DNA of 42,406 bases from a virus (lineage: Duplodnaviria; Heunggongvirae; Uroviricota; Caudoviricetes), in IMG/VR virus record IMGVR_UViG_2534682160_000015, positions 1 through 42,406 of that record; one strand, given 5' to 3'. Of the stretch, positions 6,001 through 9,000 are shown piece by piece. Position numbers: made by a program. Position 1 is the first letter of the stretch, and every line of letters begins with the position of its first letter.

Positions 6001-9000
6001 GAAAGGCACGTAAGAGGTGTTCACTGCTTCTAAAATTGCTATACTATTCATGTTGGTTTTTCTCCAAGGATTTACCGACAACCGAAGCCCTGACTGTTAC
6101 CGCAGTTGGGGCTTCAACTTTTCACTTCTTTAAAGTGCCTACCTTCTACAGTTGCTCTGAGATAAAAATTCTTATCTTTACCGTTTAGTGCTTCCCAAGC
6201 ATCAACAATGCACTTATTACAGATGTGGACTTCTCGATAACCAATAGCTTTCCTGTCAATATTAGTGAACATAACAGCTTCTTTATCTGTCAATGTGGAT
6301 GCATGACAGAAGTCGCAATCTATATAAGATACCTTCATACCGTTATCCCCTCTCTCTTCAGGCTGTCCATCACTCGCTTGTAAATCTCAGAGTTAACAGA
6401 TCGCCCGTTCTCTTCCGCCACCTTACGCACCAAATCAAATACTTCTTTAGGCCACCGCAAATTGAACTGCGGCATTTTGCTCATTCCTTTCATATTCACC
6501 TCACAATATAGGTCCACCGTGGACCTATTGAGAATATAGTAGAGTGCTTCTATCATGTCAATACACTAACTTGGGGTGATGGCATGGCTAGAGACGATCC
6601 GCACTTTAACTTCCGTATGCCTTTGGAAGTAAGAGAAAAATTGAAATTAAGAGCAGAGGCTAACGGAAGGTCAATGAACTCTGAGTTATTACAAATCGTT
6701 CAGGATGCTCTCTCAAAGCCATCATCAATTGTAGGCTATCGAGACGAAGCTGAGCGAGTCGCGGATGAGCAATCTGACGTTGTTAAGAAGATGGTCTTTG
6801 AAACGCTGAAAAATATTTATAGCAAAAGTAAGTTATAGGCTTATGACGTACAGTTAACCATATCGATATTGGCTCGCGTGATGACAAATGAAAAAAAGCA
6901 ATGGACTCACATTAAAACTTGACGGAACCACCCCTGGCCAGCTGTCAATGGCTAAGTTGGTCAAGTATATGTCTGCTCTCGTAGATCTATACGGTTCTGC
7001 AGATTCTGTTCACTTCGACTGTGTAAGTGAAGGATCGGCTGACTTAAATGCATGGGTCGATAATGATATTTGTTATAACGCTGTCATAGCAAGGGCCTCT
7101 CTCTCAGCCAAAGAGAAATCACCTGCGTATCAAAAAATTGTTAATTTACTGGAACATGATGGTTTTTCAGCGAAACTACTCGGACGAAACCACTCAACCA
7201 TTATCGCATTCCCGCGAGTAAAAAAGGAACCAATCCCTTTACTCATAACAAAAACGTCAGAAGTTCAAGGAAGGCTATACAGTGTTGGCGGAAAAGACAA
7301 CTCAATACCTGTGCGTATTGAGGGAGCCAACGGTGAAACATTCAAGTGCGAGGCAACCCCTGATTTGGCGGCAGCTCTTGGGTCCCATCTATTCAAATAT
7401 ATTAGGGTTAAAGGAGATGGGTGCTGGGAAAAAAAGAACAACAAATGGGAGCTAAAGAAACTAAAAATAACTTCATTTGTATTGCTCAAAAAATCATCAC
7501 TCAAGGATGCTATTAATGCTATCAAGCAAGTTCCTGGAGATCAGTGGTCCGAGGAACGCGATGTTGATTCAATCCTTAGGACTCTGAGGAAGATAAATTG
7601 CGAGTAATTTTAGATACCAATATTCTGGTATACCTACTATCAGATATAGAACACGATTATAGATTATCTGACCCTATACTTGGTTCTGAGATTCCAGATG
7701 CCAAAAGAAGAGCAGAAGCTCTTGTTGATCGAATAGATAACAAGAACGGGACAATCATCGTTCCAACTCCTGTATTGGCGGAGTTTTTAGTTGGAATCCA
7801 TAAAGATTACCAACAAGAAAAACTGAATGTTATCAAATCGTTATCGTGCTTCGAAACTGTATCATTTGATGAGTTGGCTGCTATTGAATGCGCATCGATA
7901 CCAACATTAAAAGAATTAAGGAAAATTAGCACAGAAGGTACAGCAAACAAAATTAAGTTTGACAGACAAATAATAGCAATTGCAAGAGCAATTAATGCTG
8001 ACGAGGTATGGACTCATGATAAGGGAGTGTTTGAGCGTTGCAAAAGTCTCAATATTCCTGTGTTCACATTATCATCAATAGAACCAATTCCGGTTCAAAG
8101 TCTCATGGAGTTCTTACACGATTCAGACGATCAGAGATTACACTAAAATATAATTTTTATGCATCCGTGATAATTACATCCGTCACGGATACATAAAGCT
8201 ATAGCCAAAAGTGGACAAACCTTTATCTCACTCCAAACCATCTGGTATCCTGCTCAAAACTAAGGAGGTTGGTGTGTTTGGTATATTAACGAGAAGCAAG
8301 ATAAAAAAATTAAGGGCAAAACTCGCCGAAACACAAAAACTGGCTTCACATTTTTACAAAATGAAATACGACGCTGAAGAGCGTGCATTCGTTGAGTTAT
8401 GCGATTTATCTATTCGTATGGGAGTAGAGCCAGATGTAGCGGCAAAAACTCAACAAGGCATTGATATACTTGCAGATGTTGTTTTAAACAGGCAATATGC
8501 GTTTTATCTAAACGAGAAGGCCATTCAGATTTACTCTCAAATCTTCCTCCTAGAAAAAAGAAGAGGAACTCACGATCGAGAAGAGTGGTTAAATGAAGTT
8601 GTTAAAAAATCTGGCTGGGAAGTTGTTTCATCAGAGCTACCTCTTATTTGTGCTGATTTAATCGAAGAGGCAAAAGAGCGTCTATCCGATGGCTAAACGA
8701 ATCCATCCGTGGATTACTAATTACTCCAGCTCCATTCCGCTTAGCGATGCCACAATCCCAGCCCTCGCTAAGCGCTGAAACTCTTCGTTTCCGACGGTAT
8801 CACGTATCGCTTTTACAGCAGCTTTATTTGCCATAAATCTGCGTTCCGCCGCCGCTAATGCACCATCACTTGCCCCAACATTAACTGCCTTTGTTGCCTC
8901 TTGGACAGCCTTTTCAATCGCGTAACGACTACTGCGGGATGCAGCTAACTTTTCTATCGTCCCTTTAGCTATAGATCCAGAAACAGCCCCCACAACACCG

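What the first reader, a model, noticed from the sequence alone, without database searches (positions are those of the whole stretch)
6114..6338. Extra Cys-rich small gene inserted between arc and ant
A 74-aa protein with two Cys pairs (CDFC ... CNKC) is translationally coupled to arc and precedes ant. It could modulate antirepressor expression or be an independent small cargo protein.
Basis: seen in the sequence. Interest (0 to 1): 0.35.

Follow-up and report, generated by a model that had tools for sequence, protein, structure and literature searches.

The report
Zinc-finger cassette gene inside phage immI operon
A real, conserved 74-residue four-cysteine (ClpX-type) zinc-finger gene sits in a fixed swap-in slot between the arc repressor gene and the sar antisense RNA of a P22-like E. 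coli prophage; it is one of at least five unrelated small genes that can occupy that slot, and its function is still untested.

Summary
On the minus strand, 6338..6114 encodes a 74-aa protein whose ATG overlaps the arc stop (ATGA). Its last codon and stop are the complement of the 3' end of sar RNA, and ant starts 62 nt downstream.

It is a real gene. Relatives at 42-99% identity are all 74-75 aa, dN/dS is 0.11-0.36 with dS up to 0.87, and all four Cys are invariant.

The family is tiny, about 15 clusters from E. coli, Citrobacter and Salmonella. It has no significant Pfam, PHROG or NCBIfam match and occurs in none of 50,697 phage records. In every context read it lies between arc and ant, although the arc, mnt and ant alleles differ widely.

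Sequence profiles and the predicted fold both point, below formal thresholds, to the ClpX N-terminal C4 zinc finger.

The slot itself is polymorphic. It is empty in P22 and ε34. In E. coli it holds this gene (23 of 5,426 complete genomes), a second C4 ORF unannotated in the RefSeq records examined (372), or three unrelated ORFs (93, 51, 14), all between identical junctions.

Best reading: a swappable accessory cistron expressed from Pant with Arc and Ant at infection, acting as a small protein-binding zinc finger. The target is unknown; a ClpX-ZBD decoy or a counter-defence role are candidates. Modest interest.

The parts
6114..6338 (-). 74-aa C4 zinc-finger ORF (the finding); RefSeq WP_000868958.1 'hypothetical protein'
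   Evidence: ORF. Purifying selection. Invariant C8/C11/C40/C43. ClpX-ZBD-like by Pfam (sub-threshold, 11/11 members), by hhalign (93.7%; z about 8 against Cys-preserving shuffles) and by Foldseek top hit 2ds5_B. GC 36.0% against 46.2% for the window.
6347..6352 (-). Shine-Dalgarno-like GAGGGG for the ORF, embedded in the arc C-terminal codons (..KREGITV*), 8 nt upstream of the ATG
   Evidence: Read directly. The same left junction, CTGAAGAGAGAGGGGAT[AT]ACGGTRTGA, precedes every cassette type.
6335..6493 (-). arc (Arc repressor, 52 aa) with the cassette-associated C-terminal tail SLKREGITV; its stop overlaps the ORF start (ATGA)
   Evidence: Pfam Arc E=9.6e-27. RefSeq coordinates mapped from L001. 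Tail comparison.
6052..6119 (+). sar antisense RNA; its 3' end (6114-6119) is the complement of the ORF's Ser74 codon and TGA stop
   Evidence: Rfam RF00262, 97.4 bits (gathering score 43), E=1.6e-21, full length 1-68.
6017..6045 (+). Psar promoter (GTGTTC-17-TATACT) inside the first codons of ant
   Evidence: Located by position-for-position alignment with the annotated P22 and ε34 Psar. Sequence read.
5149..6051 (-). ant (antirepressor, 300 aa)
   Evidence: Pfam P22_AR_N 8.1e-45 and P22_AR_C 5.7e-30. PHROG 245 anti-repressor Ant 5.9e-96.
6533..6561 (-). Pant-like promoter (TTGACA-17-TATATT, 11/12); the only promoter-like site upstream of arc and the ORF on this strand
   Evidence: Corresponds to the annotated P22 Pant/arcO region.
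6528..6556 (+). Pmnt-like promoter (TTGAGA-17-TATCAT), divergent from and overlapping Pant
   Evidence: P22 annotation.
6584..6838 (+). mnt (Mnt repressor, 84 aa)
   Evidence: Pfam Arc 5.7e-27 and Repressor_Mnt 4.8e-13.

Best explanation
The ORF is a genuine protein-coding accessory cistron. It occupies a defined cassette slot in the immI (mnt / arc-sar-ant) module of a P22-like prophage.

Slot boundaries (shown):
- On the left are the last codons of a special arc allele (..SLKREGITV*). These codons supply a GAGGGG Shine-Dalgarno sequence and an ATGA stop/start overlap.
- On the right is the sar terminator hairpin. The cassette's own TGA is fused to it (TGAAGCCCC...).

Expression (inferred from P22 biology):
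- The gene has no promoter of its own, so it is transcribed from Pant together with arc and ant.
- That means a short burst right after infection, before Arc shuts Pant down.
- It is probably transcribed again by late-operon read-through toward the tailspike gene.
- In the lysogen it is silent, because Mnt represses Pant.
- It lies upstream of the sar target, so sar should not block its translation.

Product (shown at sub-threshold significance): an 8.6-kDa single-domain C4 zinc finger of the ClpX N-terminal type. The order is knuckle CDFC, a beta-hairpin with a 10-residue insertion, then knuckle CNKC at the start of a helix, followed by a C-terminal beta-hairpin.

Mechanism (inferred): it acts by zinc-dependent protein-protein binding to a target conserved across Enterobacteriaceae, not to an allele-specific Arc, Mnt or Ant. 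It serves the incoming phage in the first minutes of infection, in host take-over or counter-defence. The most specific candidate is a decoy of the ClpX zinc-binding domain that shields ZBD-dependent substrates or adaptors.
For: Real gene:
- dN/dS is 0.11-0.36 at dS up to 0.87.
- Length is fixed at 74-75 aa and C8, C11, C40 and C43 are invariant down to 42% identity.

Slot and junctions:
- Alignment A2 and one search show identical left and right junctions around five different ORFs.
- P22, ε34 and an E. coli prophage (L034) have the empty state with the arc tail ..SFKKEGRIGA*.
- sar is intact and abuts the ORF.
- There is no minus-strand promoter between Pant and the ORF.

Accessory nature:
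- GC is 36.0% against 46.2% for the window.
- The gene is in 23 of 5,426 complete E. coli genomes, while alternative cassettes are in 372, 93, 51 and 14.
- It assorts independently of the arc, mnt and ant alleles.

ClpX-type finger:
- zf-C4_ClpX is the top Pfam hit for 11 of 11 members, best E 7.7e-4.
- hhalign against E. coli ClpX 1-60 gives probability 93.7% and score 37.8 across both knuckles.
- Two hundred Cys-preserving shuffles of ClpX 1-60 scored mean 13.0, sd 3.0, max 26.1; DksA, Ogr and YacG scored 9-16.
- The AlphaFold model built on the alignment has pLDDT 73 and pTM 0.61, with a knuckle/hairpin/helix topology.
- Its best PDB match is the ClpX ZBD, 2ds5_B, TM 0.68 on the target.
Against: - No functional data of any kind exist.
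- The Pfam score (18.9 bits) is below the gathering cut-off (27).
- The Foldseek E-value is 2, and the model is only of medium confidence.
- Treble-clef fingers are a widespread fold, so resemblance to the ClpX ZBD need not mean a ClpX-related function.
- Strict synteny with ant in all contexts read is equally compatible with a role in Ant or immunity biology.
- Timing of expression is inferred from P22 literature, not measured for this prophage.
- There was no hit in PADLOC, and no anti-defence library was available.
Confidence: 0.4

Rival explanations
1. It is a dedicated immI component that modulates the antirepressor. The zinc finger binds Ant, or the c2-type repressor, and tunes Ant's activity or stability. 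Alternatively it acts as a second, small antirepressor.
For: - Every family member whose context was read, including the 42-56% identical ones, lies immediately upstream of ant and downstream of arc.
- It shares Ant's promoter and timing.
- P1 immI offers a precedent for a roughly 73-aa cistron (icd) preceding ant.
Against: - The same slot is empty in P22 and ε34, whose immI is fully functional.
- The slot holds other ORF families elsewhere.
- The gene pairs with Ants that have different N-domains (P22_AR_N or KilA-N) and are only 47-93% identical.
- It has no sequence similarity to P1 Icd.
- It is not overlap-coupled to ant; there is a 62-nt gap containing the sar target.
Confidence: 0.2
2. 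Arc and the ORF form a toxin-antitoxin-like pair. Arc would be the ribbon-helix-helix antitoxin, followed by a small overlapping toxin gene that stabilises the prophage or causes abortive infection.
For: - An RHH gene followed by a small ORF with a 4-nt overlap is classic type II TA architecture.
- Neighbouring cargo in related 'ant morons' includes YafO toxins and PIN proteins.
Against: - Arc here is the bona fide P22-type operator-binding repressor, 87% identical to P22 Arc.
- The same arc tail precedes five different ORFs, so the tail is conserved as DNA (SD plus junction) and not as a partner-specific interface.
- The ORF occurs with Arc proteins only 48-56% identical to this one.
- In a lysogen Mnt represses the whole operon, so no addiction module would be expressed.
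- No TA or defence family matched.
Confidence: 0.05
3. The protein is irrelevant. The ORF is a spacer, or a translated leader, whose translation merely sets ribosome traffic or mRNA structure ahead of the sar/ant region.
For: - The stop codon sits in almost the same place relative to the sar hairpin as the arc stop does in P22.
- Cassettes of unrelated sequence occupy the slot.
Against: - There is strong purifying selection on the amino-acid sequence, with an invariant metal-ligand pattern over dS up to 0.87.
- A spacer would not conserve CDFC..ST..N..IC..C..R.F..K.
- P22 works without any spacer.
Confidence: 0.05

Closest known systems
ClpX N-terminal zinc-binding domain (Pfam PF06689 zf-C4_ClpX; PDB 2DS5)
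   Same: - The ligand pattern is CxxC...CxxC, with the same local motifs. ClpX has C-S-F-C-G-K-S and V-Y-I-C-D-E-C-V; this protein has C-D-F-C-H-A-S and V-H-I-C-N-K-C-I.
- The second knuckle starts a helix.
- It is the best Pfam, hhalign and Foldseek match.
   Different: - This is a stand-alone 74-aa protein with no AAA+ module.
- It has a 10-residue insertion between the knuckles and an extra C-terminal beta-hairpin.
- Its scores are below the curated thresholds.
- Zinc binding, dimerisation and any link to ClpX are untested.
P22 / ε34 immI operon (mnt, Pant-arc-sar-ant)
   Same: mnt, arc, sar, Psar, ant and the overlapping divergent promoters are all present. The DNA is 91-94% identical.
   Different: - P22 and ε34 have nothing between the arc stop and the sar terminator.
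- Here a 225-bp cistron is inserted.
- The arc C-terminus is remodelled from ..SFKKEGRIGA* to ..SLKREGITV*, which creates an SD and an ATGA overlap.
The 'ant moron' of P22-like phages (Villafane et al. 2008, PMC2629481)
   Same: That paper describes the region between gene 16 and the tailspike gene as a hot spot of gene flux, with ten types in sixteen genomes. The low-GC small ORF here fits that picture.
   Different: - The flux described there concerns whole genes around immI.
- The precise intra-operon slot between arc and sar is not mentioned in the passages of that paper that I read.
- This ORF has no promoter or terminator of its own, so it does not meet the strict moron definition.
Alternative cassettes phrog_11805 (73 aa; phages vB_SemP_Emek and vB_EcoP-611R6) and phrog_17642 (57 aa; phage phiv205-1)
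   Same: They have the same slot, the same junctions, the same overlap with the arc stop and the same unknown function.
   Different: Their sequences are unrelated and have no Cys4 motif. Unlike them, the 74-aa family is in no PHROG and in no deposited phage genome.
P1 immI icd (73 aa, upstream of ant1/2)
   Same: It is a small cistron of nearly the same length preceding an antirepressor gene, in an immunity operon controlled by an antisense RNA.
   Different: - There is no sequence similarity.
- icd overlaps ant and lies downstream of the antisense-RNA target.
- Here the ORF is upstream of the sar target and 62 nt from ant.
Anti-CRISPR / aca-type operons (from general knowledge)
   Same: They combine a strong early promoter, interchangeable small ORFs of unrelated sequence, and an autorepressor in the same operon that shuts it off after a burst.
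   Different: - This is an analogy only.
- The repressor gene is first here, not last.
- No homology to any known anti-defence protein could be tested with the libraries at hand.

Membership tests
ClpX-type C4 zinc finger (Pfam PF06689) | Four Cys ligands as CxxC...CxxC, invariant in the family | tested here: met
   C8, C11, C40 and C43 are invariant in 12 sequences at 42-99% identity. Spacing is 28 residues against 18 in E. coli ClpX.
ClpX-type C4 zinc finger (Pfam PF06689) | Score at or above the Pfam gathering threshold (27 bits) | tested here: not met
   18.9 bits, E=0.0015, covering only residues 36-51. It is the top hit in 11 of 11 members but always sub-threshold.
ClpX-type C4 zinc finger (Pfam PF06689) | Profile-level similarity across both knuckles, beyond the Cys pattern | tested here: met
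   hhalign probability 93.7%, score 37.8. No Cys-preserving shuffle out of 200 reached it (max 26.1). DksA scored 13.1, Ogr 9.4 and YacG 16.3.
ClpX-type C4 zinc finger (Pfam PF06689) | Treble-clef fold superimposable on the solved ZBD | tested here: inconclusive
   The model has pLDDT 73.4 and pTM 0.61. The Foldseek top hit is 2ds5_B with TM(target) 0.68 and rmsd 2.8 Å, but E=2.
ClpX-type C4 zinc finger (Pfam PF06689) | Zinc binding, dimerisation, and binding of the SspB tail or of substrates | not testable with these tools
   Needs biochemistry or complex prediction.
P22-type immI operon | mnt and arc RHH repressors, divergent overlapping Pant/Pmnt, ant, and sar antisense RNA over the ant RBS | tested here: met
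   Pfam hits, promoters, sar RF00262 at 97.4 bits, and 91-94% DNA identity to P22 and ε34.
Moron (Hendrix/Juhala definition, as used in PMC2629481) | Extra gene absent from related phages, with deviant base composition | tested here: met
   Absent from P22, ε34 and all 50,697 phage records. GC is 36.0% against 46.2%.
Moron (Hendrix/Juhala definition, as used in PMC2629481) | Own promoter and terminator; expressed independently, typically from the prophage | tested here: not met
   There is no promoter-like site on its strand between Pant and the ATG. The start overlaps the arc stop. The hairpin after its stop is the sar terminator, which points the other way.
P1 Icd | Sequence homology to Icd | tested here: not met
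   BLASTP found no alignment at E<=100.
Type II toxin-antitoxin pair (RHH antitoxin + toxin) | Cognate pairing or co-variation of the two partners, and a recognisable toxin family | tested here: not met
   The ORF occurs with Arc proteins 48-96% identical to this one, and the same arc tail precedes five different ORFs. There was no Pfam, NCBIfam or PADLOC toxin match.
Known anti-defence proteins (Acr, Ral/Lar, Ocr and others) | Homology to a characterised member | not testable with these tools
   No anti-defence library was available. Pfam, which includes Lar_restr_allev, gave no hit at E<=1.

The most novel reading that the evidence does not exclude
P22-like prophages carry, in the burst-expressed Pant operon, free-standing mimics of the ClpX zinc-binding domain: this 74-aa family, and possibly the unannotated 67-aa C4 ORF found in about 7% of complete E. 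coli genomes. These would act as decoys for ClpX N-domain-dependent recognition. They would transiently protect phage proteins, such as the O-like replication initiator encoded at 31169-31837 or Ant itself, or block adaptor-mediated proteolysis during the first minutes of infection. That would be a phage-encoded protease-specificity inhibitor of a new type, sitting in a swappable early-cargo slot.
Probability: 0.12. Interest if true: 0.7.

Novelty: new variant of a known kind. Interest (0 to 1): 0.38.

Why it matters
immI of P22 is one of the most thoroughly dissected regulatory modules in phage biology, through work on Arc and Mnt folding, the sar antisense RNA and the antirepressor. This analysis shows that natural relatives carry a precisely bounded cassette slot inside that operon.

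At least five alternative small genes can fill the slot. One is a ClpX-like zinc finger. Another is unannotated in the RefSeq records examined yet present in 372 of 5,426 complete E. coli genomes. Together these point to a set of uncharacterised proteins made at the same time as the antirepressor, in the first minutes of infection.

Such timing, together with cassette-like turnover, is what is expected of counter-defence or host-takeover factors, so the slot is a cheap place to look for them. If the ClpX-ZBD resemblance is functional, it would be a new way for a phage to manipulate host proteolysis. If not, this remains one more small accessory ORFan in a known hot spot of gene flux.

Tried and rejected
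- Homology to P1 Icd (same size, same kind of position): none.
- PHROG, NCBIfam and PADLOC: no significant family for the 74-aa protein.
- tblastn against 50,697 phage and 72,556 plasmid records: no match.
- Scan of GTDB species representatives: no relative.
- Sequence search of the PDB: the best hits were T-cell-receptor alpha chains and endothelin. I judge these to be chance. The ClpX ZBD appears only at E=0.16.
- Single-sequence AlphaFold: unusable, pLDDT 48.
Repeated without that row.
- Foldseek against viral models: nothing below E=0.2.
- Rfam ctRNA_pGA1 hit overlapping sar: sub-threshold (28.7 against 45 bits) and explained by the sar terminator.
- The 52-aa 'truncated' Salmonella and Citrobacter versions (P0005-P0007): for the one read at DNA level (P0005, locus L009) this is a gene-calling artefact. 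The full 74-codon frame is intact with a GTG start overlapping the arc stop.
- Literature searches for the accession, 'ant moron', zf-C4_ClpX, and anti-defence plus P22 plus Arc: no description of this gene or slot.
- Whether the 67-aa C4 slot ORF is a homologue of the 74-aa family: unresolved (hhalign probability 31.7%).
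Full report
**1. What is there**

The window is a P22-like prophage. It encodes:
- an integrase at 1-1158;
- a gp16-type DNA-transfer protein at 8721-10844;
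- a tailspike at 2713-5049;
- an O-like initiator and a DnaB-like helicase at 29796-31837;
- a CI/LexA-type repressor at 32911-33543.

Between the gp16 homologue and the tailspike lies a complete immI module:
- mnt at 6584-6838 (+);
- arc at 6335-6493 (-);
- ant at 5149-6051 (-), all three with strong Pfam and PHROG matches;
- overlapping divergent Pant- and Pmnt-like promoters at 6528-6561;
- a full-length sar antisense RNA at 6052-6119 (+), Rfam RF00262, 97.4 bits against a gathering score of 43.

The ORF of the finding is at 6338..6114 on the minus strand and encodes 74 aa. Its ATG overlaps the arc TGA as ATGA. A GAGGGG Shine-Dalgarno-like motif lies 8 nt upstream, inside the last arc codons. 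Its last sense codon and its TGA are the complement of the last six bases of sar. ant begins 62 nt further on. The two Cys pairs are CDFC (8-11) and CNKC (40-43).

**2. It is an insertion relative to the classical phages**

Megablast of the arc-ant region against 50,697 phage records found 52 records, including P22, ε34 and UAB_Phi20. The 40 listed all matched as two pieces flanking the ORF at 91-94% identity, and no record covered 80% of the query. tblastn with the protein found nothing in phages or plasmids.

The alignment (A2) places the difference exactly between the arc C-terminus and the sar terminator:
- P22 reads ..GAAGGGCGCATTGGCGCGTAAAGTTGAAGCCCC.
- The window reads ..GAGGGGATAACGGTATGA-[ORF]-AAAAGTTGAAGCCCC.

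So Arc ends ..SLKREGITV here and ..SFKKEGRIGA in P22. An E. coli prophage with the empty arrangement (L034) also has the P22-type tail.

**3. It is a real gene**

Two database searches found only about 15 clusters of relatives. These were a word-indexed search of 5.8 billion proteins and an exhaustive HMMER pass over 1.84 billion representatives. The relatives are 42-99% identical and all 74-75 aa long. Where a source names the organism, it is E. coli, Citrobacter or Salmonella.

The apparent 52-aa forms in Salmonella and Citrobacter look like gene-calling artefacts. In the one read at DNA level (L009), the full frame is open with a GTG start overlapping the arc stop.

Pairwise Nei-Gojobori dN/dS is 0.11-0.36 with dS up to 0.87. 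Thirteen positions are invariant: C8, D9, F10, C11, S14, T15, N26, I39, C40, C43, R67, F69 and K73. This rules out a chance ORF or a mere spacer.

**4. Context is invariant, partners are not**

All loci fetched for family members show arc (4-nt overlap), then the ORF, then ant, inside a P22-like 'ant moron' between gp16 and the tailspike. These loci cover seven protein clusters. The one exception is L012, where no arc gene was called.

The neighbours vary a lot. Relative to the window, Arc is 48-96% identical, Mnt 37-83% and Ant 40-95%. The Ant N-domain is either P22_AR_N or KilA-N. ORF identity does not track neighbour identity: it is 81% where Arc is 51%, and 56% where Arc is 82%.

So the gene moves as a cassette by recombination in the conserved junctions, yet it has never been seen elsewhere.

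**5. The slot is polymorphic**

With the same left junction (CTGAAGAGAGAGGGGAT[AT]ACGGTRTGA) and the same right junction (..TGAAGCCCCAACTGC, the sar hairpin), other E. coli prophages carry different ORFs:

| Cassette | Example locus | Complete E. coli genomes (of 5,426) |
|---|---|---|
| This 74-aa C4 gene | window | 23 |
| 67-aa second C4 ORF (MSKECCFCG..LCSDCV), no CDS annotated in the RefSeq records examined | L022:1244-1447 | 372 |
| 57-aa ORF, phrog_17642 (also phage phiv205-1) | L002 | 93 |
| 73-aa ORF, phrog_11805 (also phages Emek and vB_EcoP-611R6) | L003, L004 | 51 |
| 89-aa predicted membrane / coiled-coil ORF | L025 | 14 |

The empty P22 state also occurs in E. coli (span 339).

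The ORF's GC content is 36.0% (GC3 30.7%), against 46.2% for the window and 45.7% for arc.

The region as a whole is already known as a hot spot of gene flux, the 'ant moron' of Villafane et al. 2008 (PMC2629481). I found no description of this intra-operon slot in the literature I could search.

**6. What the protein looks like**

There is no significant match in Pfam, PHROG, NCBIfam or PADLOC. Several weak signals nevertheless converge on the ClpX N-terminal C4 zinc finger:
- PF06689 is the top Pfam hit for all 11 members scanned, with best E 7.7e-4 and 18.9 bits against a cut-off of 27.
- hhalign of the family profile against E. coli ClpX residues 1-60 aligns both knuckles, with probability 93.7% and score 37.8.
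- The aligned motifs are IDCDFCHAS with LYCSFCGKS, and VHICNKCIVD with VYICDECVDL.
- As a control, 200 shuffles of ClpX 1-60 that keep the four Cys in place scored 13.0 ± 3.0 (max 26.1).
- AlphaFold2 with the 11-sequence alignment gives pLDDT 73.4 and pTM 0.61. Confidence is highest around the two knuckles. The topology is strand 23-25, strand 38-40, helix 41-52, then a C-terminal hairpin at 57-60 and 67-70.
- The best PDB match of that model is the ClpX ZBD crystal structure 2ds5_B (TM 0.68 on the target, rmsd 2.8 Å), but E=2.
- The viral fold library gave nothing useful.

I therefore call it a ClpX-type (treble-clef) C4 zinc finger, with a 10-residue insertion between the knuckles and a C-terminal extension. 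This rests on sub-threshold but mutually consistent evidence. Formal Pfam membership is not met.

**7. How it most likely works**

*Shown:*
- The gene has no promoter of its own.
- It is overlap-coupled to arc.
- It lies upstream of the sar target.
- sar and Psar are intact.

*Inferred from the established P22 circuit* (Pant is strong, autorepressed by Arc, repressed by Mnt in lysogens; sar blocks the ant RBS; late transcripts read through the region toward gene 9; my own knowledge):
- The protein is made in the brief burst after DNA entry, together with Arc and Ant.
- It is probably made again late in infection.
- It is not made in the lysogen. This makes it an infection-phase factor and not a lysogenic-conversion gene.

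*Further inference:*
- A single small zinc finger with no enzymatic domain most plausibly acts by binding another macromolecule.
- It tolerates any Arc, Mnt or Ant allele, so the target is probably host-encoded or otherwise conserved.
- Cassette turnover in a burst-expressed, autorepressed operon resembles the logic of anti-CRISPR/aca loci. This suggests counter-defence or host take-over.
- The most specific hypothesis is a decoy of the ClpX ZBD. From my own knowledge, not checked here, the isolated ZBD added in trans is reported to inhibit degradation of ZBD-dependent substrates such as lambda O.
- The prophage does encode an O-like initiator. That is true of most lambdoid phages, so it is only circumstantial.

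I put about 0.4 on the overall 'accessory early zinc-finger binder of a conserved target' reading. The ClpX-decoy version specifically gets about 0.12.

**8. Rivals**

- *Dedicated Ant modulator or second antirepressor (0.2).* Strict synteny favours it. The empty and alternative slot states, and the varied Ant types, count against it.
- *Arc-ORF toxin-antitoxin pair (0.05).* The architecture fits. Independent assortment, Mnt repression in the lysogen and the absence of a toxin-family match count against it.
- *Translated spacer (0.05).* Purifying selection on the protein sequence excludes this.

The remaining probability is for functions I cannot name.

**9. Verdict**

The gene is an uncharacterised, narrowly distributed family. 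As a kind, it is a new variant of the known accessory gene flux in the P22 ant moron. The added points of interest are:
- a precisely bounded multi-allelic cassette slot inside a textbook operon;
- ClpX-like zinc-finger content;
- a very common sister cassette that the RefSeq records examined leave unannotated.

Interest is modest, at 0.38.

Noticed in passing
L022:1244-1447 (E. coli AST240, NZ_AP043633.1); same slot as window 6114-6338: A second Cys4 ORF of 67 aa (MSKECCFCGISESDADQTYIYSKETGRMLCSDCVLDII...) fills the arc-sar slot in 372 of 5,426 complete E. coli genomes. No CDS is listed over it in the RefSeq records examined. Its first knuckle also resembles ClpX (CSFCGKS). Its relation to the 74-aa family is unresolved (hhalign probability 31.7%). 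One metagenomic cluster (P0016, 112 aa) is an Arc-ORF fusion.
   Followed up: partly
window 6335-6360 compared with L013 and L034 (P22-type): The arc C-terminus is dimorphic. It reads ..SLKREG[IV][TVA][VI]* whenever a cassette follows, even for Arc proteins only about 50% identical. It reads ..SFKKEGRIGA* when the slot is empty. The cassette-type tail encodes the SD and the ATGA overlap for the downstream ORF.
   Followed up: yes
window 6888-8146 (+): Directly downstream of mnt, in the position of sieA in P22, lie a 239-aa protein of unknown function (phrog_19868) and a PIN-domain protein (182 aa, PF01850 4.1e-10, phrog_21691). Their genes overlap by 10 bases. They may be a toxin-antitoxin or defence pair expressed from the prophage with mnt.
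   Followed up: partly
L004:1527-2063 (E. coli CU37RT-2): A related 'ant moron' carries a ClpP-like gene annotated 'ATP-dependent Clp protease proteolytic subunit' immediately after mnt. It also has two extra antirepressor-like genes (ORF6N and P22AR_C). Its slot holds the 73-aa cassette, not the zinc finger.
   Followed up: no
L005:3150-3491; L012:3034-3483; L025:123-542; L007:2546-3160: Other cargo next to mnt in related prophages includes a Rap1a-like (T6SS immunity) protein, YafO-family toxins and a SieA-like protein. This illustrates how much defence and competition cargo accumulates around immI.
   Followed up: no
L009:3935-4159 (Salmonella Newport and relatives; proteins P0005-P0007): Database entries list the family member as a 52-aa protein starting at Met23. 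In L009 (P0005) the DNA shows the full 74-codon frame with a GTG start overlapping the arc stop, so that entry is an N-terminally truncated gene call; P0006 and P0007 were not checked at DNA level.
   Followed up: yes
window 6114-6122: The ORF's last codons (AAA AGT TGA) reuse the ancestral sequence AAAGTTGA that follows the arc stop in P22. Seen from the other strand, they supply the short T-run after the sar terminator stem. The invariance of K73 may therefore partly reflect an RNA-level constraint.
   Followed up: partly
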